64,000 nucleotides of DNA from the sequence record PP761450.1. One strand, 5' to 3'. A program made the translations under genes and the position numbers. The notes below the pieces were generated by a model that saw only the letters and a list, made by a program, of their open reading frames with translations, made no database searches and was not told where the DNA came from. Positions 1,234 to 64,000 of this stretch are shown one piece after another. The stretch comes from Escherichia phage LHE287. The number at the start of each line of letters is the position of its first letter. The stretch's first letter is position 1.

Positions 1234-1896
1234 TTACACCTCCACCGCGTGAGACTTCAGGAGTTCATCAATCTCTTTCTGTCCCATGTATGAGAACGGG
1301 GTGCGCTGGTAGAACGCCCAGAGTACTAACTGGACAACAGCACGGGAACGGGTTTCGGCCGTCATCACCAGGCCACTGAAATGAGGAGACTCAGCTGTCC
1401 ATTGTATCTCTTCGCCCAGGTCTTGATTACAGGTCACCGAGATGCGGAACTTGTTGCACAGATTGTCGACTTCTTTGTACGCATCGGTAGACACACGAAG
1501 TTGTTCCGCATGCGCCCACGGAGTTGTGACGATTCTTTCACCCATCACTTTATCAGAGATAAACCAATCAATACATTCGGTAAACTCACTAAAATGGTCG
1601 ATACGATAAATGCAGTCTCCCCCTTCCATAGAACGCATGGCATGATAGCGAGCGTCGATTTCGTTGTTGTGCATCGCGTTGAAGTCGATGAACACGCGAC
1701 GCGCCAGCACAACATCTTCTGGTTGAAGTGCCAAGAAATCGTTCAGGCGGCTATAATGGAGGATATTGGAACCGTCGTGGCCACGTGTGCAATATGCGTA
1801 ATAGCTACCGATACGGGCGTGGGCAATATAAGACAACGGGGCGAAGAATAATCCGTCAGGATCAGGACCGACGATAATAGAATAAAGTTTTTCCAT
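1234..1896 (-). CDS. hypothetical protein
   Basis: ORF 1234..1911 trimmed to first ATG (1896); the listed start is TTG. Confidence 0.5.
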   Translation of the reverse strand: MEKLYSIIVGPDPDGLFFAPLSYIAHARIGSYYAYCTRGHDGSNILHYSRLNDFLALQPEDVVLARRVFIDFNAMHNNEIDARYHAMRSMEGGDCIYRIDHFSEFTECIDWFISDKVMGERIVTTPWAHAEQLRVSTDAYKEVDNLCNKFRISVTCNQDLGEEIQWTAESPHFSGLVMTAETRSRAVVQLVLWAFYQRTPFSYMGQKEIDELLKSHAVEV

Positions 1897-1952
1897 GATA
1901 TAGTCACTCAAATGAAAGGGCAGCTTTATGATAAGCCGCCCGAGGTTATTGA

Positions 1953-4622: not shown

Positions 4623-4878
4623 TCAGGATACGAGCGGCGTCGAAAGTTTCCCCGCCCGTGTTCAGCAGCTTGGTCAGATCGTCAAGATATCGGACCGTGC
4701 CAAGATCAGATGACCGCGATATGAACTCCAGCATACCATACAACGCTGTTTGGAATCGGCTGTTATCGATATCGTTCTTTATTACCATCAGGCGCAAGAT
4801 GTTCTCTGACTGAGTATGGCCAACACACGCCTTGTCTCTGATCATCTCCTTGATAGAACTTCTCTCTGATGGTGTCAT
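4582..4878 (-). CDS. hypothetical protein with C-terminal poly-Glu tail
   Basis: 98 aa ending EEEEEEEV, encoded by a (GAA)6 run; ATG with G-rich RBS. Confidence 0.45.
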   Translation of the reverse strand: MTPSERSSIKEMIRDKACVGHTQSENILRLMVIKNDIDNSRFQTALYGMLEFISRSSDLGTVRYLDDLTKLLNTGGETFDAARILIDGGPEEEEEEEV

Positions 4879-5249
4879 AACGTACCCCCGACAGAGATCA
4901 AGAACTCTTCTTGCATGGTCTTGACCGGGTGGTGGTTGCGGGTTTCGAACATGAAGCCCCAGCCACCGTCGGCGACGTTGCCAAAGGTCTTGACGCCAAA
5001 GGACTTCGTCCCGTTGGAGCAGGAATAGATGTCCAGGACGTATGGGCTACCCTGATTGTCGATCCCACGATTCACGTCGTCTGATACGCAGCGCTCAATC
5101 ATCTTCCCGTTCTTATACAGAACGAGGTCTTGGCCATACGCCTTGAAAGCATAAACACCGTTGGTAGACACTCCGGTGATGACAGGAGGGGCGGAAACAG
5201 CAGCAAAGGAAGCGCCCAGCAGGGCAACAGCGAGGATTAACTTTTTCAT
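4875..5249 (-). CDS. secreted protein (signal peptide)
   Basis: Start MKKLILAVALLGASFAAVSA at 5249. Confidence 0.5.
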   Translation of the reverse strand: MKKLILAVALLGASFAAVSAPPVITGVSTNGVYAFKAYGQDLVLYKNGKMIERCVSDDVNRGIDNQGSPYVLDIYSCSNGTKSFGVKTFGNVADGGWGFMFETRNHHPVKTMQEEFLISVGGTL

Positions 5250-5308
5250 GATATAGTCTCTTGGTTTCAAATAGACGGGGTAATCATACCCCGCCCAAAG
5301 TTATAGAA

Positions 5309-5548
5309 TTAACTGATGTGCTTCAGAAGAGCGAAGAGGATCGCGGCCTTGGCCTTTACCTTTCCTACGATGCCTGTTTCGACATCAACTTCTTCAGCAA
5401 CCCACTCTTTTCCCTTCTTGCTGATGATAACGTCACGACGCTGTGCGTAGACTTCTTTGGTCGCATACACACGGCGGAACCCTTTAGCGCGGAGCAATCC
5501 CCAATTGCGATCAATTTCTACTGAGGTTTCTACCATTTTGTTCTTCAT
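5309..5548 (-). CDS. hypothetical protein
   Basis: 79-aa ORF; upstream AAGGTAAG...TTATATC-ATG. Confidence 0.45.
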   Translation of the reverse strand: MKNKMVETSVEIDRNWGLLRAKGFRRVYATKEVYAQRRDVIISKKGKEWVAEEVDVETGIVGKVKAKAAILFALLKHIS

Positions 5549-5599
5549 GATATAATCTTACCTTTCAACCCGGTGAACCCATCGTTCGCCAGTTATTGA

Positions 5600-5629
5600 A
5601 TAATACGCATTTACCTTATAGAAGTAAAC
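5600..5629 (-). promoter_or_regulatory. candidate sigma70/T4-early-type promoter (GTTTAC-N18-TATTAT)
   Basis: Minus-strand -35 GTTTAC (5624-5629) and -10 TATTAT (5600-5605), upstream of gene starting at 5548. Confidence 0.4.
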
Positions 5630-5640
5630 CCCTAAAAGTA

Positions 5641-5667
5641 AAAATCCCCAACAAACGTTGGGGATTT
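5641..5667 (-). terminator. rho-independent terminator
   Basis: ccccaac/gttgggg stem followed on the minus strand by TTTTTACTTTT; downstream of gene 5682..5906. Confidence 0.55.
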
Positions 5668-5681
5668 AATAAAAGTTATGC

Positions 5682-5906
5682 CTATTTAATTTCTCGGCTT
5701 GAATTTTCTAGTTCTAATTTTCTTATAGCGGAAATTCTGCCTTCATCAGTTGCGGGAAACTCCCAAACAGCACGACGCCCATTGTTGGTATCACAACTTG
5801 CCAGCCAGCAGAAATTAGAGGGGTCCTTAAACAAGACCAACTTCGGATTTCCTAAATTGATGAGGTTAAACGGGGTGAGGTCAACAACACATGATATAGC
5901 AGACAT
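5682..5906 (-). CDS. hypothetical small protein flanked by the two repeat copies
   Basis: 74-aa ORF, ATG with AGAAGG RBS. Confidence 0.4.
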   Translation of the reverse strand: MSAISCVVDLTPFNLINLGNPKLVLFKDPSNFCWLASCDTNNGRRAVWEFPATDEGRISAIRKLELENSSREIK

Positions 5907-5951
5907 AACATATACCTTCTTTCAATGAACGGGAACGCCCCGATCTATGAA

Positions 5952-6020
5952 TTCAATAATACGCATTTACCTTATAGAAGTAAACCCCTAAAAGTAAAAA
6001 TCCCCAACGTTTGTTGGGGA
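5952..6020. repeat. Direct repeat copy 2
   Basis: Same core as 5596..5667; the hairpin is present with its loop reverse-complemented. Confidence 0.7.
5956..5985 (-). promoter_or_regulatory. candidate sigma70/T4-early-type promoter (GTTTAC-N18-TATTAT)
   Basis: Same element as 5600..5629, upstream of gene starting at 5906. Confidence 0.4.
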
Positions 6021-12933: not shown

Positions 12934-14952
12934 TTAGAACACAACTTTCACAGTGCGGTTGAACGAACCGCTCACCTTCACGAACACGTGGTTGCGTTGG
13001 GTGGTAGAGAAGCCCAGACCGGACAGCTGCTCAGTGCTTGGCTGTACTTTAATCTTACCACCTAACATTTCAAAAACCTTGCGGTGTTTATCAAGTTCCG
13101 GCTTCAGATATTCGTTATAGAAACCACGGGTGCCGACAGGGTTAGCACAACCTTCCAGGATGAAGAACACGTGCTTGTTGCCAGTCTGCTCGCCGTCCCA
13201 ATGGTTTGGTGAGTTCAGAACCAGCTGTACCTTCTGGAAGACGGAGGTCTTGATGCCCCAGATTTCCTGAGAGCGAGCGTCGTCTTTCAGGGTAGAACTG
13301 ATGTCAACCACCTGACCAGCGCGAACCTGAACCACAACAGCCAACGTGCGATCTTTGTTACCCAGGCCAGGGTGTGAGAAGCGCTTAGTCTGACCTTTGT
13401 ATTCAACTTCGATTTCGAAACCAACGTCACAGGTTTCACGCTTGTTGAAGTTGGTGACATAGAACTCATAATTCCCGTCACGCAACTTGCGTTCATCGCT
13501 AAAGAAGATGTTCTCCACCGGACGGCGGTTTGGATCAATGCCGTCCATACCGTTCATGTCGATGTCCAGAGTTGCGCCAGTTGTCGAACGACGGTTGCGA
13601 AAATATACGTGGTTGTGAAGAGGATCGTTCATGCTCAGATCCAGGTCGTCGTTGTTATGCCAAGCCAGTGACACGCGGAGGAAGCTGTCGACATTGCCGC
13701 CTGCGGTCTTCACGCGCTCTTTGATGGAGTCGGCCACTTCGCCATTGTACGACCAGCTGAAGCCGTTGTTCCACTTGAACAGGTTAGGAGCGCCTGCGGT
13801 AGCCGGAGCGATCAGGGACATCAGGTTGCCAATGTGAGAGTTTTCGACCAGCACTTCCAGGGAATGCGCCTTTGGCAACACGTTGGTCAGGAAGTCGTCG
13901 ATCGTGATCTCTTCAACCTTGTCCAGGGACTTGGTCGGAGTCTTCACTTCAGACGCCAGCTGAGCAAACGGGTCCATCTTCTTCTGAGCTGCCAGATCGG
14001 CGAACAGAACGTTGTTGATGGTCAGATCGTCATACACGGCATAACGGCGACCCAGTGAATCGGTCAGACCCAGCGCTTCGACTTCTTTCTGCGCGTTTTC
14101 AATCATCGACTTCGTGACCAGCGCGGTTGGGCGCTTGTAGTTCGTCGGAGCGACTTTGGCTTCAAAGGACTTCACGGCGGTTTCCAGATCCCGGCCTTCA
14201 TTGAGGTCTACCAGCAGAGAGCCAATCACGGTATTACGAATGCCGTGAGGGGTATGACCGTTTGCACGGTAGCCAGTGCGCCAAGCCCACAGAGCGCGTT
14301 TCTCTTCTGCAGTTTGTTCGTACAGGGTCTTGTTCACCACGAACGCCTGCACTGCCGCTTTGTGCTCTTCACCGCGATACAGAGAATTCTGGTCAATCAA
14401 TTCCAGAACGATTTCAGCCGATTCCAGAGACAGTTCACGCAGGCCGCGCTCAAACACTTCAATCGCCTGGCGGATTTCACCCTTCTTAGAAGCGATGGTA
14501 TCTGCCCGCAGAACATAGCTGCCCAGCAGGTCGGTGTGGAAGTGGTTGTAGGTACGGACAATACCATCTTTCATTTCGTGATTCGACTCAACACCAACTT
14601 TCTTGGTGTCGTTGAAGTACACGTCGACGATTGCGTGCTGCTTAACATATGCTGACAGCGCCGCAGCGACAACGTCGTATTCGTTACCCAGCTGAATGTT
14701 ATCCCAGATAGAGATCACGTTCAGATCGGAGTCGATGGTGACTACACCGCCGATGTTACGGATGAATTGTTTGCAGCAGGTGCAGTCGTGCTCGGTACGC
14801 TCACGATAAAGCGGGTTAGTGCCAGCAGGGAAAGAAGACAGATACAGATCCCACAGAGCATCTTTATCGATGTTGGTCATGAACAGACCAGTTGCTGACA
14901 TGGCCAGCACGTTATTGTTGACAGCTACTGCGAAGGGCTTAAAATCTGACAT
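12934..14952 (-). CDS. hypothetical large early protein (672 aa)
   Basis: Long ORF with AGGAAG RBS; no motif I can assign. Confidence 0.6.
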   Translation of the reverse strand: MSDFKPFAVAVNNNVLAMSATGLFMTNIDKDALWDLYLSSFPAGTNPLYRERTEHDCTCCKQFIRNIGGVVTIDSDLNVISIWDNIQLGNEYDVVAAALSAYVKQHAIVDVYFNDTKKVGVESNHEMKDGIVRTYNHFHTDLLGSYVLRADTIASKKGEIRQAIEVFERGLRELSLESAEIVLELIDQNSLYRGEEHKAAVQAFVVNKTLYEQTAEEKRALWAWRTGYRANGHTPHGIRNTVIGSLLVDLNEGRDLETAVKSFEAKVAPTNYKRPTALVTKSMIENAQKEVEALGLTDSLGRRYAVYDDLTINNVLFADLAAQKKMDPFAQLASEVKTPTKSLDKVEEITIDDFLTNVLPKAHSLEVLVENSHIGNLMSLIAPATAGAPNLFKWNNGFSWSYNGEVADSIKERVKTAGGNVDSFLRVSLAWHNNDDLDLSMNDPLHNHVYFRNRRSTTGATLDIDMNGMDGIDPNRRPVENIFFSDERKLRDGNYEFYVTNFNKRETCDVGFEIEVEYKGQTKRFSHPGLGNKDRTLAVVVQVRAGQVVDISSTLKDDARSQEIWGIKTSVFQKVQLVLNSPNHWDGEQTGNKHVFFILEGCANPVGTRGFYNEYLKPELDKHRKVFEMLGGKIKVQPSTEQLSGLGFSTTQRNHVFVKVSGSFNRTVKVVF

Positions 14953-15066
14953 GATGTAATCTTCCTGTTTCAGTTCAAATGTGCGCCCCGTTTGCTAGGG
15001 CGCTTCGTTTAAGTGAGGTCAATATACGCTGGATTGAGTTATTGAAGAACGAAGTAAAGGAAATCT

Positions 15067-16310: not shown

Positions 16311-16337
16311 AAACAGAGGCCATTATAGCCTCTGTTG
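16311..16337 (-). terminator. rho-independent terminator
   Basis: acagaggc/gcctctgt 8-bp stem followed on the minus strand by TTTT. Confidence 0.55.
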
Positions 16338-16358
16338 TTTAGTGAATAACTGTATATC

Positions 16359-17231
16359 TTAATCGATACGGGTCAGTTGGGTGATAGATGATTGCACTGG
16401 GCTGGCCACATAGATACGGACGTTGGCTTTCCATTCACCCCAGATCAACGGCAGAGTTGGGAAGTTGTCTTCATTGAAAACAAACACGGGAATGTAGCTC
16501 TCGACTGTTTCGCCAGAGAACGCCTGAAAGCCCATCTTGGTGTATCCCATGATCTCGTCAATAAAATCGAACGGAGCGAAGGCAACACCAGCGTGTTCGT
16601 TGCATCCGAGCTGGCCTGGAGTGGCCGTACCTGTCAGAATGATTTCGGTGATCTGGCGCTTAGGCTCGGCGGTCAACATATCAGAGAAGTCAGGCTCTTT
16701 GAAGGTTGCCATGTTCTTCAGGAACTTGCCAGCCGGGTACTCTTTGCCGTCGACAGTGATGGTGTCTACCACTTTGATGCACGCCTGAGGGAATTCCCCT
16801 TCGATGCGCAGACTTTCGCGTGGGAAGCCTTTGTTGTAGTAGTAATCCAGTGCTGGCACAACTTCACCTTCATTACGGATGAACTTGCTCATGTTAGAGG
16901 CATACACGCGCTGTAGACATTCGTCACCGTCGAAACCAGCAATATGAGCCACACCGTCGTTGACTGTTGTGATGTCGCCCTGGGCATCCATGATCTGGCG
17001 CATAATGTCTTTGATGTCGACAACAACGGGTTCTTTCAGGACTCGCGGAGATGCGGTGAACTCAATTTTCACCTCGTGGTCGAAATACGCCGCTTCCAGC
17101 AGTTCACGGGTTTCTTCCAGCACCAGTTTCGCCTGATTGCGGATCTTACCAAAGTCGGGCGATGTGACGTCGCCCTTTGCATTACCGAAAGCCAGATTCA
17201 GATTCACGTTCTTGGAAAATGTAGTTGTCAT
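16359..17231 (-). CDS. hypothetical protein (290 aa); N-terminal region weakly MazG-like
   Basis: KLVLEETRELLEA resembles the MazG/HisE EExxE helix; GGAG RBS. Confidence 0.45.
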   Translation of the reverse strand: MTTTFSKNVNLNLAFGNAKGDVTSPDFGKIRNQAKLVLEETRELLEAAYFDHEVKIEFTASPRVLKEPVVVDIKDIMRQIMDAQGDITTVNDGVAHIAGFDGDECLQRVYASNMSKFIRNEGEVVPALDYYYNKGFPRESLRIEGEFPQACIKVVDTITVDGKEYPAGKFLKNMATFKEPDFSDMLTAEPKRQITEIILTGTATPGQLGCNEHAGVAFAPFDFIDEIMGYTKMGFQAFSGETVESYIPVFVFNEDNFPTLPLIWGEWKANVRIYVASPVQSSITQLTRID

Positions 17232-17247
17232 GATTTAGCGACTCCAG

Positions 17248-17712
17248 TTATTCGCTTTTTGCCTTCGTAGGCCGGATGATGTATTTTGGAACCAGTTTCC
17301 ATTCAGGAACCTGATCGTGTTTAACCACTTTAATGCGAGACATATCGGCTGCTTCAGTGACCTGCTCAGGATGAATGACCTTCACCATGTTCCACTGCTC
17401 CAGCAGCTTGATGATTCGGTTCATCCTCAGGACATCTTCGCGGTTAAATCCGTTGTAATGCCCGTCCAGCATAAATAGATGCTTAAAGTGGACGATATAA
17501 TACTTGCCACACTTATGAAGAATATGGCAAGTCTGATACAGAGTATTCGGCTCTTGGCGCGTGTTTACCCCAATTCGACTCAGTGTTTCCTTGATCCCCA
17601 GGAATATACCTGGCCGATCTTGGTTCAATTGAACTTCAACCATACAATCAACGATGCTGGCCTCATCGTTGACTGCTGAAATATTCAATATGTCTAGCGT
17701 ATTACGCGCCAT
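17248..17712 (-). CDS. regA: RegA-like translational repressor of early genes
   Basis: LYQTCHILHKCGKYYIVHFK and EWKLVPKY closely match T4 RegA as I recall it; sits downstream of genes 45-44-62 as in T4. Confidence 0.8.
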   Translation of the reverse strand: MARNTLDILNISAVNDEASIVDCMVEVQLNQDRPGIFLGIKETLSRIGVNTRQEPNTLYQTCHILHKCGKYYIVHFKHLFMLDGHYNGFNREDVLRMNRIIKLLEQWNMVKVIHPEQVTEAADMSRIKVVKHDQVPEWKLVPKYIIRPTKAKSE

Positions 17713-19907: not shown

Positions 19908-20040
19908 TTGTATGTATCCTCAAAATATAGTGGGGGTTCAAGTCATGTTTGACGCAATCTAGTATCGCTGTGTTTTGCTTATAGAACAAGTGGCAAATTG
20001 CGCTACGCGTTATTAATAAATGCCTTCGGCATTTATGGAC

Positions 20041-25339: not shown

Positions 25340-25367
25340 AAGAAAATACCCCCATGGATGATGGGGG

Positions 25368-25374
25368 TATTTAG
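25368..25374 (-). promoter_or_regulatory. late-promoter-like CTAAATA motif
   Basis: CTAAATACCCCC with inverted copy GGGGGTATTT before the ATG at 25339. Confidence 0.45.
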
Positions 25375-26783: not shown

Positions 26784-27227
26784 TCAGTTGTTAACGCGGA
26801 ATGCCGCCGGATACCCACCTGGATGCCCTTCTCCGGTCACGAAGACCTCGTACCGGGCACCTTTAACCAAACCAGGCAAATTGCCTGAGTCAAGCAGATA
26901 GCGGATTTTATCCATAGTCTCCATCCAGGACTTAGCAGGTTCGGCCTCGGCCTCCCCACGGTTGATTTTGATCACACCCTCTGAATAATACTTCCCATTG
27001 TCCTTCATGTAGTACAGCTTGACATCGATAAACTGTGGGGATGGAACTTCTGTCCAACCCTCATCGTTCAAATCCTGGCGATCATTGTCGAAACTCTGAA
27101 AATCAACATCACCGCATGCCAGGCGATAATCTTTGAATTTACGGAAACCTTCCACCTTGTCCCCAACGGAGCTACGGAAGAACTGTTTCTTGGCGGGACT
27201 AATGAAAATGAAATTCTTGTTACACAT
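26784..27227 (-). CDS. hypothetical protein
   Basis: Start MCNKNF (27227) with AAGGAAGG RBS and CTATATC spacer. Confidence 0.5.
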   Translation of the reverse strand: MCNKNFIFISPAKKQFFRSSVGDKVEGFRKFKDYRLACGDVDFQSFDNDRQDLNDEGWTEVPSPQFIDVKLYYMKDNGKYYSEGVIKINRGEAEAEPAKSWMETMDKIRYLLDSGNLPGLVKGARYEVFVTGEGHPGGYPAAFRVNN

Positions 27228-27534
27228 GATATAGATCCTTCCTTTCAAAGAATGTTGTGTTCGTCGATATCGGACTGCGTTGCAATCTCCCAGCGGACGA
27301 TGTTCTCGGTTGTGACGAAATCACGGTTCAGGTGAGAGGCTGGCACATACACCATCGTGTCTCGACCATGAAGTAACACTGCTCATTGTTACAAGAATCA
27401 ACGTAAACCTCGATGAGGCACACCTCGGCAACACCGGCTTTCGGCTTCTTCACAGTCTTTTTCAAGTACATGGTACAACCCTCGGATAGTAGACGGGGCA
27501 ATAATACCTCTCACCCCGTTATTGAAATGTTCTT

Positions 27535-34386: not shown

Positions 34387-34920
34387 TTAGAGAGACTTGT
34401 CTGAAATGGCCTGGAAGTAACGCAGGTCAACAGTGAACTGAGTATAAGAGTCCATTGCAGACATGTCCAGTTCCAGCTGACCGAGGTTCTGAGGCCAGGT
34501 GCCCTGAAGGGTCCAGGTCTTGGTGACGTTGTCATTCGCATCCAGCAGTTCCATGATTACATCACGGAAATAATCATCTGGGTTAGCAGACGCACGGTTG
34601 TTGTTGCTGCCGTTGATATACTGCTGCCAGACTTCGAATGCGTTGTACGGGGCGTTGTCCACGACGTTGATGAACGTCACAGGCAGAGCCTCGAAACGAC
34701 GGTCGCCTGGGAATGGAAGTTCACGACCACCCCATGGGACGAGTATTTCCCCGAGCTGGCCTGTTGGGGTATTTGTGGTCACCGCTAACAGCGAAACATC
34801 ACGGATGGTATCGCTTCCAGCCACGAAGGAAGGGAAGTTAACAGTCACACGCCAACGGTGTTGGCGCTGAACGCCGCCCCCGCGTGACATAGCTGCTCTG
34901 AATTCATTAACTGTAGCCAT
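34387..34920 (-). CDS. gp19: tail tube protein (gp19-like)
   Basis: 177 aa; C-terminal LGQLELDMSAMDSYTQFTVDLRYFQA parallels T4 gp19 LQLDWDSNNEIQTFEVTLALDYWE; late motif upstream. Confidence 0.7.
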   Translation of the reverse strand: MATVNEFRAAMSRGGGVQRQHRWRVTVNFPSFVAGSDTIRDVSLLAVTTNTPTGQLGEILVPWGGRELPFPGDRRFEALPVTFINVVDNAPYNAFEVWQQYINGSNNNRASANPDDYFRDVIMELLDANDNVTKTWTLQGTWPQNLGQLELDMSAMDSYTQFTVDLRYFQAISDKSL

Positions 34921-34946
34921 GGTCGTTCTCCTCTGAATAGTGTAAA

Positions 34947-34953
34947 TATTTAG
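34947..34953 (-). promoter_or_regulatory. late-promoter-like CTAAATA motif
   Basis: 27 nt upstream of the tail tube gene. Confidence 0.45.
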
Positions 34954-35311
34954 TTTTGAAATAAATGGGGGTTAAAATACCCCAAAGTGAGGATATTTAT
35001 TATGTCATTCCCCCGATAAAATTGTTCATGCTACCACAAACCGTTCACCCCAACCAGGAAGGCTGCGTTGTATTGTAGTGACGAATGTAAATCATTCATG
35101 CTGGGAACGATGAAACGCAACTCAGATTTATTGGTCAATCTTCCGGCGACCGAAACTGAATGCCGCTCTTGGGTTGATAGTAAACTCAGGAAGAAAGATG
35201 GTTCGTTGAACTTGGATACGATACAGAAGGAAAACAGAGGATATGCTGGCGATAGAAGCCGGGTTGGGTGTATCTGGGGTGTGGTCTTATCCGGTATGAA
35301 CTGGAAACTAA

Positions 35312-35330
35312 AACCCCGCCTCAGCGGGGT
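35312..35330 (-). terminator. hairpin terminator
   Basis: aaccccgcc-tca-gcggggt followed on the minus strand by TTTAGTTT. Confidence 0.5.
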
Positions 35331-35336
35331 AAACTA

Positions 35337-35693
35337 CTATTTGCGAATGCTAACCTGAGCATAATACACATGATAATCACCATGGGCACGGAAGCTGGTG
35401 AGGTGGAATGTGACGAGGTGGCTCCCGAAAGCTACAACTTTGGTATCTGGGGAGCATAAATCATTAGCCAGTTCACCCAGAACCTTACCACAAAACTCCT
35501 CAACGATAGCGTTAAATCTGTCAATGTGTGGACTGGTCACCGTCATTGGACCAACATCTGCACAGTAGATCCCTTTTATCATCTTTCCCTGGCTGTCGCG
35601 TACTGGCTTTGCAGGCTGGTAAGGATTGATGCGGCGTTTCAGGTTACAGAGGCCGATTTCTTTCAGGATAGCGTTAATTTCAGTCTTGGTCAT
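35337..35693 (-). CDS. hypothetical protein (accessory gene between sheath and tube genes)
   Basis: Start MTKTEIN (35693) with AAGGAA-CTATATC-ATG; sigma70-like promoter upstream. Confidence 0.45.
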   Translation of the reverse strand: MTKTEINAILKEIGLCNLKRRINPYQPAKPVRDSQGKMIKGIYCADVGPMTVTSPHIDRFNAIVEEFCGKVLGELANDLCSPDTKVVAFGSHLVTFHLTSFRAHGDYHVYYAQVSIRK

Positions 35694-35740
35694 GATATAG
35701 TTCCTTCGTTTCAAGTTGGTGTCGTACTGCTTATGTTTAG

Positions 35741-35768
35741 AATTATACGTGAGTTATTGAAGAAGTAA
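35741..35768 (-). promoter_or_regulatory. candidate sigma70/T4-early-type promoter (TTTACT-N16-TATAAT)
   Basis: Minus-strand -10 TATAAT (35741-35746) and -35 TTTACT (35763-35768). Confidence 0.4.
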
Positions 35769-35802
35769 AGTAATTCAATAAAATAATCTGGGAAAAATTT
35801 AA

Positions 35803-35821
35803 AACCCCGCCGAAGCGGGGT
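35803..35821 (-). terminator. UUCG-loop terminator
   Basis: accccgcc-gaag-gcggggt; U-run on the minus strand. Confidence 0.55.
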
Positions 35822-35825
35822 CTTG

Positions 35826-36128
35826 TTACACTTTGCTGTATTTCTTAAACAATTTACCGAGTTCACCTGGGGCTTCTCGAGTTCCAGCAGCTTTGCTAAC
35901 AACCTGTTTATCTTTCTTCAGGTCGAATACTTTGATCTCTTTGCCATTATATGTATATTCAAAATCATCAATGGTTATGCGGAAGAAATCTCCAAATACT
36001 CCATTTTCGATATCACCCTTTTTGAGCCTTACATCTTGGTCTTCCAACCATTCAATCACGGAGTCTTTAACTTTCTGAAGGTCACCTTTTAGGCCTGCTT
36101 CTGCTAAAAATTGAGAAAAACTTTTCAT
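35826..36128 (-). CDS. hypothetical protein
   Basis: 100-aa ORF with GAGGT RBS. Confidence 0.45.
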   Translation of the reverse strand: MKSFSQFLAEAGLKGDLQKVKDSVIEWLEDQDVRLKKGDIENGVFGDFFRITIDDFEYTYNGKEIKVFDLKKDKQVVSKAAGTREAPGELGKLFKKYSKV

Positions 36129-36144
36129 AACAATACCTCAATGT

Positions 36145-36160
36145 GCCCTCCGAAGAGGGC
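36145..36160 (-). terminator. UUCG-loop hairpin after sheath gene
   Basis: gccctc-cgaag-agggc. Confidence 0.4.
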
Positions 36161-36170
36161 ATGGAGTAAA

Positions 36171-38066
36171 TTAAGAAACGGCTACGATACCACCACCAGT
36201 TTCGATCTCGCTGAACTCCATGTCCGGACGTACCGCAGCAAAGTCCAGATACACCCAGTTGATGGAGTATTCTGGTTTCAGCCAGATACCCGCGACCATC
36301 TGGTTCGCAGCGATAACATCAGCGGTGTTGTTGTCCTCGTCACACTTCACCATCCCGTCATAGATCGCGCCCATGTTGGCCAACTGGCGGATATATGGGC
36401 GGACAGCGTTGCTGAACAACCCACGAGTGAATGCATCGTTGTTCTCACCAAGGTAGTATTTGGCGATGGCTGCGATGTTCTGCTCTGCCATAATGAACAG
36501 ACCACGAACGTTGATGCGGTCGAACGCAGATGGGCGGGTCAGGCCAGTCTTGTCGCCGTACAACACGATGCCTTCGTTGGAGAAGGTGACGATGCTGTTG
36601 ATCTGGTTGCGATACAGCACAGCACGCTCATCAGAAGACGCAGACCACGCCATTCGATTATAGTTGTTGTATTTACCACGGTTGTGGAACGCTGGAGACT
36701 TGTAGATACCCGCGATTTCAATGCTTCGCGCCCAAACACCTGCGGTGCCGCCACAAGCCGGAATCCAACGCATTTTGTCGTTGTACTTGTCGTACACATA
36801 CGCCCAGTTGTCATCCATGAAGAAGTAGGAGGAGTCGCGAACAAGGCTTTCACGCCAGGCCACAACATCATCCATCTCACGGCCACGGTTTCCGACGACC
36901 GTATCGCGAAGAGGAGACACGAAGGACACTGTGTCTTTACGCTCAGTGGACAGGTCGATCAGCGCCTGCTGCTCAATCAGTTCTTCACAGAAACCGAACA
37001 CTGGCTTGGCATCATACGCTTCGGCGTTGTTCAGTGCCTGGATAGCCGCAACACGGTTCCCAGTGTAATCGTCTACACCACCTTCGAGTTCAATGACACC
37101 AGCAGCCAGGGTATTGGCGAAGGCGTACACCCAATTTGAGGTGCCGTTGATCACGTCTTTGAAGTACGCATTGGATCCATCAGATTTCTTAGAACCCTGA
37201 GCGGTCTGCACCAGTTCATACTTCTCGATGATCGTACCGGAAGCACCAACAGTGGTGACGGCAGCGGTAGCAGTCAGACCATTCGCGTCTGGAACAATCG
37301 CAGTCGCAGCCTGAGGACCGATTGCTTTGTGAGTGACGGTGACGGTGTTGGACTTCACGACAACAGAAGAATACACTTCAGACAGGGACGTCAGCGCAGT
37401 TCCGATCTTTGTCGCCAAGGTCGCCGGGGTGTCAGCGTCAGTGTACGCCACGGCTTCACCAGCAACAGAGATGGAACCAGCAGCGGTGGCAGTACCGGAT
37501 ACAGAGATACGATCAACCTGACTAACAGCGCCAGAAGAGTCGGTGATGCGACCTACTTTGTCAACGATGGCGATATGGTACTCGCCATCCTGCGGAGCAT
37601 ATGCGAAGTTGTTACGGAATTCCCAGGTCGGGAACAGCGCAGCGTCACAGATGTTCACAGCAATGTCGTTACCCAGAGAGCCAGCATAGCGGCCTGTCCA
37701 GGTAATAGACGCAGATGGAGACGCAGTTTCGAAGTCTAGTTTGTTGCGGATAAGGATTGCAGTCTGACCTTTGGTTACAGCGTTGCGTGCCGCCGGACCG
37801 ACCACACGGGTCACCCATGCAACAGAGCTGTAAGACAGGAAGTCAGCAATCACCAAGAAGTCGGTGGCAGTTGCATCGTTTGGCTTGAAGAATTTCTTCA
37901 CCAGACCAGTTTCGCCACCAGTGACCAACACAGGGAGTTCTGCTTCACCCCATTGGAATTTGCCGACAGTCGCACCCTGAACAACAACGGATGGAGACGT
38001 CTGAAGCGTGGCATCACGCTCAGTCCACTGTACGGACGGCGCAACGCTGAAGCTTTGAGTTGCCAT
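36171..38066 (-). CDS. gp18: tail sheath protein (gp18-like)
   Basis: 631 aa from MATQSF start (38066) with GAAGGA RBS; position between terminase and tube genes; late motif at 38109. Confidence 0.8.
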   Translation of the reverse strand: MATQSFSVAPSVQWTERDATLQTSPSVVVQGATVGKFQWGEAELPVLVTGGETGLVKKFFKPNDATATDFLVIADFLSYSSVAWVTRVVGPAARNAVTKGQTAILIRNKLDFETASPSASITWTGRYAGSLGNDIAVNICDAALFPTWEFRNNFAYAPQDGEYHIAIVDKVGRITDSSGAVSQVDRISVSGTATAAGSISVAGEAVAYTDADTPATLATKIGTALTSLSEVYSSVVVKSNTVTVTHKAIGPQAATAIVPDANGLTATAAVTTVGASGTIIEKYELVQTAQGSKKSDGSNAYFKDVINGTSNWVYAFANTLAAGVIELEGGVDDYTGNRVAAIQALNNAEAYDAKPVFGFCEELIEQQALIDLSTERKDTVSFVSPLRDTVVGNRGREMDDVVAWRESLVRDSSYFFMDDNWAYVYDKYNDKMRWIPACGGTAGVWARSIEIAGIYKSPAFHNRGKYNNYNRMAWSASSDERAVLYRNQINSIVTFSNEGIVLYGDKTGLTRPSAFDRINVRGLFIMAEQNIAAIAKYYLGENNDAFTRGLFSNAVRPYIRQLANMGAIYDGMVKCDEDNNTADVIAANQMVAGIWLKPEYSINWVYLDFAAVRPDMEFSEIETGGGIVAVS

Positions 38067-59505: not shown

Positions 59506-61267
59506 AACGCACCTCCGGCTCCACAGTTACAGCACCGATGCGGAGCACCTGATTCTGTGTGGCCTGAATGTTCTGGTCAAGACCGTCTGGAGACACAATT
59601 ATTGTCACACCCTCAGTGTTGTAGTTGGATACTATGATACGCTGGAGTTCAACAACGCCAGTCACATAATCAACCGTTCCAACAGCTTGTACCAGATATT
59701 CCTTGGTCGTGTCTGTTGTACTCACCTTGTACATATTCAGGACACCACTGACGTCGCGTATGTAGTAAGTGAATTCGACCTCGGCCGGAAGCGGCTTAAA
59801 CCCACTGATACGCACAGAACCAGACGCAATCGAGCGCCCAAAATCGAATGTGAAGCTGTCCAGTACCCCGTAGTCTGGCTTGAAATGGCGTTTATACTTC
59901 ACAGAAGTGATGTTTGACACTATCGATCTGTCCATGTCGGTGATGGCCGACTGTAACTGCTCTTTATCGAACAGTTCGTCGAATCCTTCTAGGTTCCCCA
60001 AGCCCCAGTTGACAACACCGTTCTTCACGACTATCTTCAACTGCTCTTCGGTATAGGACGTGGAAGTGGGATCCCAGAACACGCGGGTGGTGACATCAAC
60101 ATAAGTCAGTTCAGCGTCGACAATCTTGGGTGTGATCGTGCCCACATTGTACTTGTCCAACGTCGCCACGATATCTGCCTTCTCAGCGTCCGAGAGCGCC
60201 TCACCAACAGAAGGTATCACAGCAATGTAAACGTATCCGGAGTCGGGCGGAGAGAGCGTGTCGCCGCCATATGCTTTGGCGCGGGAGACGTTAGAGAACA
60301 GACGCTCGGTCAACACAGCATAATCGACTTCGGCCACTGCCGCACCCTCAGCCTGATAAGCCAGCGGAGCAAGGCGCTTGATGTCCTCAATGCTCTCTGG
60401 GTCCTTACCACCGGAAGAACGTTCTGACACCAGCTCAACATCTACAAGGTTGAATCCCCCGATGGAAGACGCGGAGGACAAGGTAGTGATGTCATTGCCG
60501 TCTGCACCAGCTGTCTCCAGATACTGGAGGTACACGACGTTCCCGTCTTCTACTCGCTTACAGATATACCCATCACCGAATTCGAACGTGTACATCCCGT
60601 CCAACCCCAGCTCAACGAAGTAGAGTTGCGCATACTGGCTCAAATCGAACGGGCTGACATATCGTGAGAAGGTAGACCGCACGTCAGATGTCTCAGATTC
60701 CTGCACCTGCACCACCATATGGTCGATGTCCACGGAAGAAGATGGGATCACATAGGTAGAGATCGCGCTGCCTTCCACATCATAAGACTTGTACAGCCAG
60801 TTACCCTGTATGAGTTTGATGTTCTCGAACTTGTAAGAGCCGTCTACAAGAGAGGCACTCACAGGTTGGTCAACCGTGAAGTTATAAGATTTGCCATCCT
60901 TCACCCCAATGAACATCGCGCGGCGATCCATTACAATCGTGTCTGGAGCCGTGCTGGCGTCATATGGAGTGACTGTGACGTTTGCGTACAGGTACGCGGC
61001 CTGGTAGTTGTGAGGGGTGTAAGATAAGAACCCCGCCGCCAGACCGACATTAGAACGCTGTTGAGCAGAGTGAAGATGGCTTTCGCCATTCAGCATGTTC
61101 TGCATGAACCCGATAGAGTTGGCATCCGAGGCCAAGATACGCACGATTGCACTGAGACCAGAACCTTCAAAGTCATAATCCTTGAAAGTTGGATCAGCTT
61201 TCATGCGCTTCTTGATAAGATACTCGAAAGCCCTGACATCGAGTGAAGGGACTGTTTGCGTGGCCAT
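59489..61267 (-). CDS. gp6: baseplate wedge protein (gp6-like)
   Basis: Start MATQTV (61267) with GGAGAT RBS; DYDFEGS and ITPKI match T4 gp6 as I recall it; late motif at 61308. Confidence 0.7.
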   Translation of the reverse strand: MATQTVPSLDVRAFEYLIKKRMKADPTFKDYDFEGSGLSAIVRILASDANSIGFMQNMLNGESHLHSAQQRSNVGLAAGFLSYTPHNYQAAYLYANVTVTPYDASTAPDTIVMDRRAMFIGVKDGKSYNFTVDQPVSASLVDGSYKFENIKLIQGNWLYKSYDVEGSAISTYVIPSSSVDIDHMVVQVQESETSDVRSTFSRYVSPFDLSQYAQLYFVELGLDGMYTFEFGDGYICKRVEDGNVVYLQYLETAGADGNDITTLSSASSIGGFNLVDVELVSERSSGGKDPESIEDIKRLAPLAYQAEGAAVAEVDYAVLTERLFSNVSRAKAYGGDTLSPPDSGYVYIAVIPSVGEALSDAEKADIVATLDKYNVGTITPKIVDAELTYVDVTTRVFWDPTSTSYTEEQLKIVVKNGVVNWGLGNLEGFDELFDKEQLQSAITDMDRSIVSNITSVKYKRHFKPDYGVLDSFTFDFGRSIASGSVRISGFKPLPAEVEFTYYIRDVSGVLNMYKVSTTDTTKEYLVQAVGTVDYVTGVVELQRIIVSNYNTEGVTIIVSPDGLDQNIQATQNQVLRIGAVTVEPEVRYVQRS

Positions 61268-61307
61268 GATAATCTCCATCACCTGAGTTTGAATATGGTG
61301 TTGAAGA

Positions 61308-61314
61308 TATTTAG
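61308..61314 (-). promoter_or_regulatory. late-promoter-like CTAAATA motif
   Basis: 41 nt upstream of the gp6-like gene. Confidence 0.45.
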
Positions 61315-61632
61315 CCAACGGGAATCAAAACGCTCGCGCGCGTTTAATTTATTCGAATATAACTCGCGAGGGGGCTGACGCCCTCGCTCGTAACACCGCC
61401 CTATGCGGGCAGCACCATTCCACAGCCATGGAGGCTGCTTCTCGTTGTTCGTTGACACTCACAACTCGAAGGGCACTGCGTTAGGATACAGTTTCTTGAT
61501 GTTGTAGAAAAGTAGTTTTTACCTATTAATAATCACTGTCATTATTTTATTGGTCATTCCTGTGTTTATATTCAATAAACATACTCCCAATATAATAACG
61601 GAGACATTTAATCAATCCAGTGAGGCTCCGGA

Positions 61633-62409: not shown

Positions 62410-64000
62410 AAAGAGGAGAGGACTTTTCAAATTAGCTTGGCTGTAGTATAGTAAATTTTATGGTGTAAAGAGTCGGGCGACCAGCGGTGTAAAGGCTGAG
62501 GCCAAGCACAGTCCTAGGACGAGGACTCCGGCTCCATAAGTCAATATCCACCTTGCATGGTGTCAGTGGACGCACTTGACCGTCGGAGAACGAAACTCCC
62601 TGTTGTAGCGTGATTAGCTCAGAATCAGAGAGCACCCCGTTGGCAAGTCGACACCAACACAAGGGGAGGTCGGGGGCGCTAATCTCCATCACGCCGACAA
62701 CATTATGAGTCTTCCATAGAGGGTTCATAATGTTGCGTCAAAGGGCAACAAGGTTCCTGTTGGTTGAATTAACTTGATTCATAGTTCCTACTGATCTTCC
62801 CGGATTCGAAGGAGCACCAACAGGCGAGGCCGGATGCGTAAGTTCCGGTAAATCGATGGTGATACCCTCGCCAACAAAAATAAAAGGTTTTATCAATAAC
62901 GGGTTACAAAGTATAGTTAACCCACTGAAGCGAAAAGCTGTTTGGGCATTAGACAAACACTTCGATGTGAACCCAGGACATGGCGTCTTGTGCTCAAACA
63001 GGTTTTCGTTTTCGTTGTGAGTGACTTTGCGGGTTTTTAGAAACTGACCAAGCAAATAACTGCTAATGATTCCGAAGTTCTGATGGCGGCGTAACAGCCT
63101 ATAAGTCAGTGAGGTCTTCCGATTCCTCATCACCAAATTCGGCGCACTAAAATAGACGGGAGGGTGTGATTAATAATCTCCCGTCGACAATGCCGTTATA
63201 TCTGACTGTCCAAAGGGGATAAGCTCCTGAGTAAGCAGAGGTGGGTTGCCTAAGTCAGATGGGATGTAAGGTCAGCGCTGGCCAAGCATTTGGGTTCGAC
63301 TCCTAAAAACGGCTCCACATCTTTGAGGATATTCTCACGAGTATCTTGAAAGATGTGAGCGAAGTCTTGCCATCAGCCCTGATCCCTGGCAGGTGAAGGG
63401 CACACAAATCGAAGTGCCTTGACAATTTATCTTAAACCCAAAGGTTGATCTACAAATTGGGCGGCCAATCCGGTGGACGATAACAGCATATTGGGCCATA
63501 CTGTTGAGTCAGGGCACTTCGATTTGTGAACTTGAGAGAGCATTGGGTGAAATAGACCATGCCTTGCAGATTGCGATGCCTATACATTCCGGACACTGGT
63601 GGGCACCAAGAAGAACTCAGTAGCAGACGAGCCATCAGGGTTAGCTACCCGGCGCGGCGAGGACTGGGAGGCCGAACTAAGGGGAAACCCGAGACAGGCG
63701 TAGTATTCTCAAGTTCACAAAATGAAGAGCATTAAAGAACTCGCAAAGGACCTGAAATTGGTATCCCTGGCTTGTACCACTGAGTGTTCTTCATCTTTGG
63801 TGATTCTATGTTGCCGGGCTATCAACCCATGCTTGCTGGAGCAACCAGCGGCTCTGAATCAACCAGCCAGCCTCGTTTGGTCCGAGCGTTAGAGGACAAG
63901 TTGCTTCTACATGGAAGCTGCGAGTTGCGACATTGGTTGCAACTTTGATGGCTCTGGATTTTATAAACCATGTCTATGGGTGACGCGGGATCTTTAGTAC
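62410..64000. other. ORF-poor region of about 1.6 kb, possibly structured non-coding RNA (unclassified)
   Basis: No convincing ORF in any frame; multiple nested GC-rich helices; tRNA-like T-arm/acceptor 3' motif at 63290-63317. Confidence 0.3.

What the first reader, a model, noticed from the sequence alone, without database searches (positions are those of the whole stretch)
27227..27246. Conserved AAGGAA-N-CTATATC-ATG initiation region on several early genes: candidate RegA operator
At least five early-region genes (starts 1896, 5249, 5548, 27227, 35693) share a nearly invariant CTATATC or TTATATC spacer abutting the ATG, downstream of an AAGGAA-type RBS; weaker variants occur at 5906 and 12075. 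A conserved spacer is not needed for initiation. The window encodes a RegA-like translational repressor, and T4 RegA binds AU-rich sequences at the start codons of early mRNAs, so this motif is a plausible recognition site.
Basis: partly seen in the sequence, partly recalled or inferred. Interest (0 to 1): 0.55.

Follow-up and report, generated by a model that had tools for sequence, protein, structure and literature searches.

The report
Conserved start-site motif of early phage genes
A short sequence (TTGAA…CTATATC) sits directly in front of the start codon of a small set of non-late genes in this ViI-like (Ackermannviridae) phage and its relatives; it is real and conserved and probably acts during translation start, but nothing yet ties it to the phage's RegA repressor.

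Summary
YTATATC-ATG occurs 6 times in the window, all on the minus (coding) strand, against 0.18 expected; five copies abut true start codons (1896, 5249, 5548, 27227, 35693). The window is an Agtrevirus-like Ackermannviridae phage, about 98% identical to phages ZQ1 and RPN242. In the full RPN242 genome all 8 exact copies abut start codons, while none of 5,479 non-start ATGs has CTATATC in front. Position-independent start preferences predict about 0.1 copies (0/2000 shuffles). The motif has two parts, TTGA[AG] then the Shine-Dalgarno (SD) site then YTATAT[CT]-ATG, and is kept at orthologous sites in four genera. It is never found behind a late promoter. It often forms the 3' end of hairpin plus sigma70-promoter plus leader modules that resemble the T4-type promoter-early stem-loop (PeSL) cassettes. 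A weaker ATC-ATG preference (16-23% of phage starts against 3% in E. coli) also covers late genes. A RegA homologue is present (PF01818). However, orthologues of the classic T4 RegA targets (44, 45, 62, regA, rIIB, dexA, 43) lack the motif, and genuine T4 RegA sites are far less uniform. My verdict is a real, previously undescribed class-specific translation-initiation element. The RegA-operator reading is possible but unproven.

The parts
27225..27248 (-). Index site: TTGAAAGGAAGGATCTATATC-ATG, the start region of a 147-aa gene (26784-27227, phrog_4181, unknown function). The TGA inside TTGAA is the stop codon of the small upstream ORF.
   Evidence: GAT-CTATAT(C/T)-ATG is kept in 6 of 7 taxa from 4 genera. 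The PHROG profile aligns 1-146/146.
35691..35714 (-). TTGAAACGAAGGAACTATATC-ATG, the start region of a 118-aa gene (35337-35693, phrog_13016) inserted between the tail-tube and tail-sheath genes.
35715..35820 (-). Upstream module of the 35693 gene. It consists of a terminator hairpin (35805-35820), a sigma70-like promoter TTTACT-N16-TATAAT (about 35742-35769), and a conserved leader AACATAAGCAGTACGACACCAAC (35715-35737).
   Evidence: The same promoter+leader+start region of about 85 nt precedes unrelated ORFs at RPN242 61251 and Vi01 63899, and the homology ends at the ATG.
5546..5568 (-). TTGAAAGGTAAGATTATATC-ATG, the start region of a 79-aa gene (5309-5548, phrog_804).
   Evidence: It is identical in LIMEstone1 and appears as CTATATT in KpS110. 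It is lost in Vi01 and IME250, where the orthologue is second in a translationally coupled pair.
5600..5663 (-). Hairpin (5646-5663) plus promoter TTTACT-N17-TATTAT (5600-5628) feeding the 5548 gene. This is copy 1 of a module of about 65 nt.
5247..5270 (-). TTGAAACCAAGAGACTATATC-ATG, the start region of a 124-aa signal-peptide (lipoprotein-like) gene (4875-5249, phrog_5474). A hairpin at 5274-5296 lies directly upstream.
   Evidence: It is conserved in LIMEstone1, KpS110 and IME250. In LIMEstone1 and Vi01 a denV gene with its own copy of the motif is inserted here.
1894..1912 (-). TTTGAGTGACTATATC-ATG, the start region of a 220-aa gene (1234-1896, phrog_5426, 'ImpD'). A terminator-like hairpin at 1918-1941 lies directly upstream.
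   Evidence: It is conserved in LIMEstone1 (ATATATC) and Vi01 (CTATATC).
5904..5925 (-). Variant TTGAAAGAAGGTATATGTT-ATG, the start region of a 74-aa ORF (5682-5906). Copy 2 of the hairpin+promoter module lies at 5956-6019. An out-of-frame exact CTATATCATG lies at 5890-5899.
14950..14978 (-). Variant TTGAAC-N13-TTACATC-ATG, the start region of a 672-aa gene. A leader hairpin (14983-15003) and an early promoter TTCAAT-N14-TATATT (15021-15046) lie upstream.
17229..17245 (-). Variant GGAGTCG-CTAAATC-ATG on the MazG-like gene just downstream of regA. The spacer is CTATATT in RPN242 and Vi01.
17248..17712 (-). RegA homologue (154 aa), the candidate trans-acting factor. Its own start region (AAAGGGGAATGAGTC-ATG) lacks the motif.

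Best explanation
The motif is a class-specific translation-initiation region. On the mRNA it reads UUGAR, then a purine-rich Shine-Dalgarno (typically AAGGA about 8 nt from the AUG), then the near-invariant spacer YUAUAUY abutting the AUG. It marks about 8-13 non-late (early or middle) accessory genes per Ackermannviridae genome. It usually sits on the first cistron after an intercistronic hairpin, or at the 3' end of a hairpin + sigma70-like promoter + leader module of the T4 PeSL type.

It works at the RNA level during initiation. The SD-spacer-AUG stretch is kept single-stranded next to a stable 5' hairpin. I infer that its exact sequence is read by a phage-specific trans-acting factor that coordinately controls translation of this gene class, i.e. 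that it is a translational operator. RegA is the only identifiable candidate, but the link is unproven.

Shown:
- existence of the motif and its enrichment at starts
- its discreteness as a class
- its two-part structure
- conservation across genera
- its position relative to hairpins and promoters
- its absence from late-promoter genes

Inferred: the RNA-level function and the existence of a trans-factor.
Speculative: that the factor is RegA.
For: - Enrichment: 6 copies against 0.18 expected in the window. In RPN242 all 8 exact copies abut annotated or reassigned starts, and 0 of 5,479 non-start ATGs have CTATATC in front.
- Discrete class: 4-6 exact copies per genome against 0.04-0.14 expected from position-independent preferences, 0/2000 shuffles.
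- Strand and geometry: all copies are on the coding strand with zero spacing to the ATG. This points to a translation-level role and rules out a DNA-level role for the gene itself.
- Second half: TTGA[AG] is coupled to the spacer (OR 13-16). The composite TTGAA-N5-10-YTATATY occurs 8 times against 0.43 expected.
- Conservation: exact sites with Vi01 orthologues keep 20/21 spacer bases against a 65% baseline, while the SD and upstream regions diverge. The index site is kept in 6/7 taxa of 4 genera. Sites 1896, 5249 and 5548 are kept across genera.
- The motif follows position, not gene identity. It sits on whichever ORF is first after the hairpin.
- Temporal class: 0/13 (RPN242) and 0/9 (Vi01) motif genes have a late promoter CTAAATA upstream. 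Sites 5548, 5906, 35693 and 14952 have sigma70-like promoters.
- Structure: the start region is predicted to be unpaired (spacer+AUG 0.60 vs 0.46, P=0.017; MFE folds).
- Host comparison: host genes, including the ribosomal-protein operons, do not use this context (ATC-ATG in 2/63). It is therefore not simply the host ribosome's optimum, which favours a phage-specific reader.
- RegA: it is present, 86-100% conserved within the family, and differs at 3 of 6 of T4's RNA-binding residues, so a new specificity is conceivable. Published RegA operators lie at or just 5' of the AUG, are A+U-rich and are unstructured (PMC3014915).
Against: - No binding or expression data exist for this family. Searches found no transcriptomics or RegA work in it.
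- Orthologues of the classic RegA regulon, including regA itself, lack the motif.
- Real T4 RegA sites are degenerate, unlike this sharp motif.
- The distance between TTGAR and the spacer varies from 3 to 9 nt across sites, which is unusual for one rigid protein site.
- The motif turns over. 3 of 7 orthologous RPN242/Vi01 pairs differ (rnh, 48139, 76106), and LIMEstone1 lost it at the index site.
- Partial matches (ATC, TATC) form a gradient that includes late structural genes. Part of the signal is therefore a general context and not an operator.
- Some exact copies clearly share ancestry through cassette spread, which inflates the count of 'independent' sites.
Confidence: 0.4

Rival explanations
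1. There is no dedicated trans-factor. The motif is simply an efficient, unstructured start region (AAGGA at the optimal aligned spacing, a G-free alternating pyrimidine-purine spacer, A at -3). It belongs to PeSL-like early regulatory cassettes. The identical copies reflect common descent and recombinational spread of those cassettes, plus ordinary purifying selection on a good ribosome-binding site.
For: - The architecture matches published PeSLs: stem-loop, TTTACW-N17-TAYWAT promoter, then SD and start codon at the 3' end (PMC4122927).
- A PeSL-type insertion is documented here. ORF 5682-5906 is flanked by two copies of a module of about 65 nt, while RPN242 has one hybrid copy.
- An 85-nt promoter+leader+start-region module fronts three unrelated ORFs, with homology ending at the ATG.
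- The denV insertion and deletion junctions lie inside motif copies.
- There is a gradient of partial matches in many genes, including late ones.
- The start region is slightly more open.
- It resembles the strong T7 gene 10 start region AAGGAGAUAUACAU-AUG (my own knowledge, not tested).
Against: - At least six motif sites share nothing but the roughly 24-nt element. Their leaders, hairpins and ORFs are unrelated.
- The most highly expressed genes (major capsid, portal) do not have the full motif.
- Host ribosomal-protein genes do not use this context.
- Motif genes are not significantly enriched among genes that vary between genera (2/9 vs 25/162, n.s.).
- The one recombination event resolved at sequence level used the hairpin+promoter, not the start region.
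- An unconstrained A+U-rich spacer should drift, yet 20/21 bases are kept between genera.
Confidence: 0.33
2. This is the reader's reading in its narrow form: the motif is specifically the operator of the RegA homologue, which binds YUAUAUY-AUG (plus UUGAR) and shuts off these early mRNAs.
For: - RegA is present and strongly conserved.
- The position and composition of the site match the published description of RegA sites.
- The motif genes are non-late.
- RegA differs from T4's at K14, R91 and F106, so a shifted and sharper specificity is possible.
Against: - The regA, 44, 45, 62, rIIB, dexA and 43 orthologues lack the motif in two genera. This would mean loss of autoregulation and of the core regulon.
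- T4 RegA sites show no sharp consensus.
- There is no lineage with an intermediate RegA in which to test co-variation.
- There is no direct evidence.
Confidence: 0.2
3. The motif is an RNA processing or decay signal. It would be a cleavage site for a host or phage endoribonuclease (analogous to T4 RegB cutting GGAG in early Shine-Dalgarno sites), placed next to a protective 5' hairpin.
For: - Hairpins lie a few nucleotides upstream of several sites.
- The motif is restricted to non-late genes.
- T4 RegB sites are long, SD-centred motifs of early mRNAs (GGAGRAYARAA).
Against: - The motif does not match the RegB consensus.
- No RegB homologue was noticed in the annotations.
- Zero spacing to the AUG is not explained by cleavage.
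- About half the sites lack a nearby hairpin.
Confidence: 0.07
4. The motif is a DNA-level signal: a promoter (TTGAA as a -35-like box, TATATC/T as a -10) or a recombination or homing target.
For: - TATATT is a good -10.
- A detached TTGAAC-N6-CTATATT lies upstream of the gp45 SD and is conserved in Vi01.
- Indel junctions fall within motif copies.
Against: - The spacing between the two boxes is 3-9 bp, not 16-19.
- A start site about 7 nt after the -10 would fall inside the ORF, beyond the ATG.
- TATATC has C at the critical last -10 position.
- The published family promoters are different (TTCAAT-N14-TATAAT and CTAAATAcCcc; PMC7283392).
- All copies are on the coding strand and abut the ATG exactly.
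Confidence: 0.03

Closest known systems
T4/RB69 RegA translational operators (RegA family PF01818)
   Same: The site lies between the Shine-Dalgarno and the AUG, or overlaps the AUG. It is A+U-rich and unstructured, and sits on non-late mRNAs. A RegA homologue is encoded in the same 45-44-62-regA gene order.
   Different: T4 operators are degenerate (rIIB AAAAUUAUGUAC, gene 44 AAAUUAUGAUU, SELEX AAAAUUGUUAUGUAA), whereas here a near-invariant YUAUAUY plus an upstream UUGAR is seen. The core T4 regulon orthologues, and regA itself, lack the motif. Binding is untested.
PeSL (promoter-early stem-loop) mobile regulatory cassettes of T4-type phages (Arbiol et al. 2010, PMC2839356; Comeau et al. 2014, PMC4122927)
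   Same: The order is stem-loop, then a sigma70-like early promoter (TTTACW-N17-TAYWAT type), then SD and start codon at the 3' end. The modules are repeated around the genome and are associated with ORF insertion and replacement between close relatives (window 5600-6019; the 35693 / RPN242 61251 / Vi01 63899 module).
   Different: PeSLs are defined by the promoter and stem-loop, and no conserved SD-to-AUG spacer is part of their description. Here the conserved element is the start region itself. It also occurs without any promoter (27227, 5249, 1896). The Comeau et al. 2014 PeSL paper (PMC4122927) contains no mention of Vi01/ViI when searched.
[quoted passage not shown]
   Same: They are family-wide, short, conserved intergenic motifs. 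Both are present in the window (for example 11476, 16346, and twelve CTAAATAYY matches, ten of them just upstream of gene starts).
   Different: Those are DNA promoter elements located 25-60 nt upstream of starts. The present motif abuts the ATG, has a different sequence, and is not among the two regulatory motifs quoted for this family in the one genome paper I read (PMC7283392).
T4 RegB/S1 cleavage sites in early Shine-Dalgarno regions (GGAGRAYARAA)
   Same: Both are long, SD-associated sequence motifs specific to early mRNAs and used for post-transcriptional shut-off.
   Different: The sequence does not match, no RegB homologue was identified, and the conserved part here is the spacer, not the SD.

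Membership tests
RegA translational operator (T4/RB69 type) | The site overlaps the initiator AUG or lies between the SD and the AUG of the target mRNA. | tested here: met
   YTATATY abuts the ATG with zero spacing at every gene-start copy. The criterion is taken from PMC3014915.
RegA translational operator (T4/RB69 type) | The site is A+U-rich and lacks secondary structure. | tested here: met
   5 of 7 spacer bases are A/U and none is G. The unpaired probability of spacer+AUG is 0.60 against 0.46 for other genes (P=0.017). The region is unpaired in 4 of 5 MFE folds.
RegA translational operator (T4/RB69 type) | The operator is present on the core regulon (genes 44, 45, 62, rIIA/B, dexA) and on regA itself (autoregulation). 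| tested here: not met
   None of these orthologues in RPN242 or Vi01 has the motif abutting its ATG. gp45 has only a detached TTGAAC-N6-CTATATT upstream of its SD.
RegA translational operator (T4/RB69 type) | The targets are early or middle mRNAs. | tested here: inconclusive
   Sigma70-like promoters lie upstream of 5548, 5906, 35693 and 14952. No motif gene has a late promoter (0/13 and 0/9). However, no transcript data exist, and 27227 and 35693 lie inside the late structural block.
RegA translational operator (T4/RB69 type) | The site is bound by RegA protein, which represses initiation. | not testable with these tools
   This needs gel-shift or filter-binding, toeprinting, or a regA mutant.
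RegA protein family (PF01818) - ORF 17248-17712 | Sequence membership and conservation of the helix-loop RNA-binding pocket (T4 K14, T18, R21, W81, R91, F106). | tested here: met
   Pfam match E=2e-34 over 121/122 profile positions. 43% identity to T4 RegA. T18, R21 and W81 are conserved, while K14->G, R91->V and F106->H differ. Family membership is met, and the pocket is only partly conserved.
PeSL mobile regulatory cassette | A stem-loop lies immediately upstream of a sigma70-like early promoter. | tested here: met
   5646-5663 + 5600-5628; 6002-6019 + 5956-5984; 35805-35820 + about 35742-35769. This is not met at 27227, 5249 or 1896, which have a hairpin only or neither element.
PeSL mobile regulatory cassette | The SD and start codon of the downstream ORF form the 3' end of the element. 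| tested here: met
   Homology of the 85-nt module ends exactly at the ATG in three loci that carry unrelated ORFs.
PeSL mobile regulatory cassette | Multiple copies per genome are associated with ORF insertion, deletion or replacement between close relatives. | tested here: inconclusive
   There are clear cases: the insertion of ORF 5682-5906 between duplicated modules, ORF replacement at RPN242 61251 / Vi01 63899, and the denV indel. However, motif genes are not statistically enriched among variable genes (2/9 vs 25/162, P=0.63).
Bacterial sigma70 or phage late promoter | Two boxes 16-19 bp apart (sigma70) or CTAAATA-type -10 (late), with a transcript start 5-9 nt downstream that includes the gene's start region. 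| tested here: not met
   The box spacing is 3-9 bp, and any start would fall downstream of the ATG. The sequence differs from the published family promoters.

The most novel reading that the evidence does not exclude
Ackermannviridae mark their own mRNAs with a phage-specific start-codon context. A general AUC-AUG layer covers 16-23% of genes, including late structural genes. A sharp UUGAR...YUAUAUY-AUG layer covers a non-late gene class. A phage factor would read this context, either a RegA with a new and unusually sharp specificity or an unknown protein. That would give the first RegA-type regulon with a clean consensus operator, or a new way for a phage to distinguish its own messages from host messages at the initiation step.
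Probability: 0.2. Interest if true: 0.65.

Novelty: new variant of a known kind. Interest (0 to 1): 0.45.

Why it matters
T4 RegA has been studied for about 40 years, and the cited review (PMC3014915) notes that its roughly 30 target mRNAs lack a clear sequence consensus. A related phage family with a nearly invariant 7-nt spacer plus a second half-site on a small, defined gene set would make translational control directly testable with a few RNA oligonucleotides and one purified protein.

Independently of RegA, three results add to the description of this family. The motif adds a third, translation-level signal to the two promoter motifs quoted for the family in PMC7283392, which should improve start-codon annotation (RPN242 gp110 is annotated 12 nt too short). 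PeSL-like shuffling modules exist in this family. The phage uses a start context that its host does not use. Ackermannviridae are widely used for biocontrol and as engineered reporter phages, so a compact native expression module is of practical use.

Tried and rejected
- Chance or composition: rejected.
- TTGAA as a generic terminator tail: rejected. Only 3 of 21 hairpin tails upstream of starts have it.
- TGA of TTGAA as the upstream stop codon: true at only some sites, for example 27227.
- Complementarity of the spacer or TTGAA to E. coli 16S rRNA beyond the SD: none of 7 nt or more.
- A trans-encoded antisense RNA: none. Every extended GATATAG match is just the antisense of a site itself.
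- A known RNA family: no Rfam hit in the window.
- A promoter reading: rejected on geometry.
- TTGAA as a link to T4 RegA targets: T4 genes 44, 45 and 56 do have TTGAA upstream. However, enrichment at T4 starts is only 1.9-fold and is mostly TTGAGG, so I did not use it.
- Co-variation of RegA with the motif in intermediate lineages: impossible. RegA is 86-100% identical within the family and at most 51% identical outside it.
- IMG/VR relatives of the 27227 protein: only one near-identical contig, not informative.
- Enrichment of motif genes among genes that vary between genera: not significant.
- Function of the motif genes: all unknown in Pfam and PHROGs, except the MazG-like gene with the variant spacer.
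- A literature search for transcriptomics or RegA work in this family found nothing usable.
- My regex for early promoters was too crude. It missed the known promoters at 61251 and 76106, so I cite only the late-promoter result from that call.
- One protein (L002:5530-6081) was given with the wrong locus and should be ignored.

Full report
**What the window is.** Megablast places the window in an Ackermannviridae (ViI-like, subfamily Aglimvirinae, Agtrevirus-type) phage. It is about 98% identical to Escherichia phages ZQ1, RPN242 and AV101. Almost all genes are on the minus strand. The window runs from a block of small accessory genes (about 1-6.4 kb), through replication genes (clamp, clamp loader, regA, uvsW, uvsY), into the head, tail and tail-spike modules.

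**Check of the observation.**
- YTATATCATG has six exact matches, all on the minus strand, against 0.18 expected.
PHROG profiles align from residue 1 of these proteins, so the start codons are right.
- The sixth copy (5890-5899) is out of frame inside ORF 5682-5906.
- A second conserved half was missed: TTGA[AG], with its TGA 14-21 nt before the ATG. It is tightly coupled to the spacer (odds ratio 13 in RPN242 and 16 in Vi01; P=5e-5 and 3e-4). The composite TTGAA-N5-10-YTATATY occurs 8 times in RPN242 against 0.43 expected. All 8 are on the coding strand, and six abut an ATG.

**Genome-wide census.**
- I assembled the full RPN242 genome. All eight exact YTATATCATG copies abut gene starts. One of them corrects an annotated start that is 12 nt too short.
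- CTATATC precedes 7 of 168 ATG starts and 0 of 5,479 other ATGs. One-mismatch versions are 39-fold enriched, and 2-3 mismatches are 3-5-fold enriched.
- There are therefore two layers. The first is a general context (T at -6, A at -3, T at -2, C at -1). ATC precedes 15/64 window starts, 32/195 RPN242 starts and 25/178 Vi01 starts.
- The second layer is a discrete class of exact copies. Position-independent frequencies predict 0.04-0.14 exact copies per genome, against 4-6 observed (0/2000 column shuffles).
- The general layer includes late structural genes: major capsid, portal, prohead core, and the gp15- and gp6-like genes. It is phage-specific. Only 2 of 63 E. coli K-12 starts, including the ribosomal-protein operons, have ATC-ATG. 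ATC is not among the top trinucleotides at 83 T4 starts.

**Conservation.**
- The same intergenic positions carry the motif in LIMEstone1 (Limestonevirus), Vi01 (Kuttervirus), and KpS110 and IME250 (Taipeivirus, where the common form is CTATATT).
- The index site keeps GAT-CTATAT(C/T)-ATG in 6 of 7 taxa. This includes IME250, where the flanks and the protein N-terminus have diverged. LIMEstone1 has drifted to CCACATC.
- Exact RPN242 sites with Vi01 orthologues keep 20/21 spacer bases, against 65% for ordinary spacers.
- The motif follows position and not gene identity. denV carries it in LIMEstone1 and Vi01, where denV is the first gene after the hairpin. An inserted ORF carries it in IME250. 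Orthologues that become second in a translationally coupled pair lose it.
- Turnover exists. 3 of 7 orthologous pairs differ between RPN242 and Vi01.

**Context.**
- Sites 5548, 5906, 35693 and 14952 lie 45-75 nt downstream of sigma70-like promoters (TTTACT-N16/17-TATWAT or TTCAAT-N14-TATATT). These promoters are themselves preceded by terminator-like hairpins.
- Sites 5249 and 1896 follow a hairpin directly. Site 27227 follows a small ORF whose stop codon is the TGA of TTGAA.
- No motif gene has the family's late promoter CTAAATA upstream (0/13 and 0/9). Genes with only ATC-ATG often do (4/21 and 6/21).
- The start region is predicted to be open and the hairpins stable.
- No Rfam family matches. 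No antisense partner is encoded. The spacer has no complementarity to 16S rRNA.
- The two published family motifs are promoters and differ from this element (PMC7283392).

**Relation to PeSL cassettes.** The arrangement of hairpin, early promoter, then SD and ATG is how PeSLs of T4-type phages are described, including the TTTACW-N17-TAYWAT promoter type (PMC4122927). Three events here fit PeSL behaviour:
- ORF 5682-5906 sits between two copies of a hairpin+promoter module of about 65 nt. RPN242 has one hybrid copy and no ORF.
- An 85-nt promoter+leader+start-region module precedes three unrelated ORFs (window 35693, RPN242 61251, Vi01 63899), and the homology ends at the ATG.
- denV is present or absent with both junctions inside motif copies.

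However, motif genes are not statistically enriched among variable genes. At least six sites share only the 24-nt element. In the one event resolved at sequence level, the duplicated homology is the hairpin+promoter and not the start region. Cassette spread therefore explains some of the identical copies but not the class.

**The RegA hypothesis.**
- The ORF at 17248-17712 is a true RegA (PF01818, E=2e-34; 43% identical to T4 RegA).
- It keeps T18, R21 and W81 of the T4 RNA-binding pocket, but has G, V and H at the positions of K14, R91 and F106.
- It is 86-100% identical across the family and at most 51% identical to any other RegA.
- Published RegA sites lie at or just 5' of the AUG, are A+U-rich and are unstructured (PMC3014915). 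The present motif fits that description.
- Against the hypothesis, the orthologues of 45, 44, 62, regA, rIIB, dexA, 43, 32, 41, 61 and uvsX lack the motif in both RPN242 and Vi01.
- As a positive control I applied the same statistics to the T4 early region. The known targets rIIA and 44 share GGAAATT-ATG, but no heptamer recurs more than twice in 83 starts. A real RegA regulon therefore looks much fuzzier than this motif.

**Conclusion.** The finding is a real and evolutionarily maintained element. It is not among the family motifs quoted in the one genome paper I read (PMC7283392), and my literature searches turned up no description of it. It is a two-part translation-initiation region marking a discrete set of non-late genes in Ackermannviridae, and it is often the 3' end of PeSL-like early modules.

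My best reading (0.4) is a shared translational control point read by a phage-specific factor. The main reasons are that the host does not use this context and that the exact sequence is maintained. The main rival (0.33) is an efficient start-region module propagated with regulatory cassettes and needing no dedicated reader. RegA specifically gets about 0.2, and this overlaps with the best reading and is not additional to it. A handful of RNA oligonucleotides and purified RegA would settle the question.

Noticed in passing
window-wide; for example starts at 30434 (major capsid), 31378, 32405, 34320 (portal), 41709, 61267: There is a general ATC-ATG start context. It occurs at 15/64 window starts, 32/195 RPN242 starts and 25/178 Vi01 starts, against 22/1157 non-start ATGs and 2/63 E. 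coli K-12 starts, and it is not prominent at 83 T4 starts. It includes late structural genes, so it is a phage-specific feature separate from the full motif. It is unexplained.
   Followed up: partly
window 5600-5663 and 5956-6019 (minus strand), flanking ORF 5682-5906: Two copies of a hairpin + TTTACT-N17-TATTAT promoter module of about 65 nt flank an extra 74-aa ORF. RPN242 has a single hybrid copy and lacks the ORF. This is a PeSL-type insertion; the 2014 PeSL paper I searched (PMC4122927) does not mention ViI-like phages.
   Followed up: yes
window 35691-35769 (minus strand); RPN242 record about 61250-61330; Vi01 about 63900-63980: An 85-nt promoter+leader+start-region module (CTTTACTTCTTCAATA..TATAAT..AACATAAGCAGTACGACACCAACTTGAA..GGAACTATATC) precedes three unrelated ORFs, and the homology stops at the ATG. 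RPN242 and Vi01 have different genes at the same genomic position.
   Followed up: yes
window 5890-5899 (minus strand): A sixth exact CTATATCATG lies 14 nt inside ORF 5682-5906 and out of frame. It opens a 3-codon mini-ORF (ATG TGT TGT TGA) just after that gene's own variant start region.
   Followed up: no
window 19924-19941 (minus strand), upstream of the sliding-clamp gene (start 19907): A detached copy of the two-part element (TTGAAC-N6-CTATATT) lies upstream of the gp45 Shine-Dalgarno instead of abutting the ATG. It is conserved in Vi01. Its meaning is unclear. It could be chance within a conserved leader or a displaced operator.
   Followed up: partly
window 5257-5296 (minus strand); L007 4207-4700; L008 4834-5330: denV (endonuclease V) sits between the hairpin and the lipoprotein-like gene in LIMEstone1 and Vi01, but is absent in the window, RPN242 and the Taipeiviruses. 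Both junctions fall within TTGAA...CTATATC-ATG copies.
   Followed up: partly
window about 16320-16346 and about 25345-25374 (minus strand); several RPN242 sites: Promoter boxes are embedded in hairpins. The early -10 TATAAT lies in the loop of GAGGC-TATAAT-GGCCTC, and the late box CTAAATACCCC forms one arm of a 12-bp stem. This suggests overlapping terminator and promoter signals.
   Followed up: no
window 17248-17712 (minus strand): The RegA homologue has a 23-residue N-terminal extension relative to T4 RegA. The extension is conserved across the family. The protein differs from T4 at three of six RNA-binding residues (K14G, R91V, F106H).
   Followed up: partly
RPN242 record 75867-76094 (gp110), the equivalent of the window gene 5309-5548: The annotated start in RPN242 is 12 nt downstream of the motif-abutting ATG that is used in the window, LIMEstone1 and the PHROG profile. 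This is probably a mis-annotated start.
   Followed up: partly
window 34920-36171: Between the tail-tube and tail-sheath genes the window carries two small ORFs (35337-35693 and 35826-36128) with their own early-type promoter and terminator. RPN242 and Vi01 carry a GIY-YIG homing endonuclease at this position. It is a variable island inside the late structural block.
   Followed up: partly
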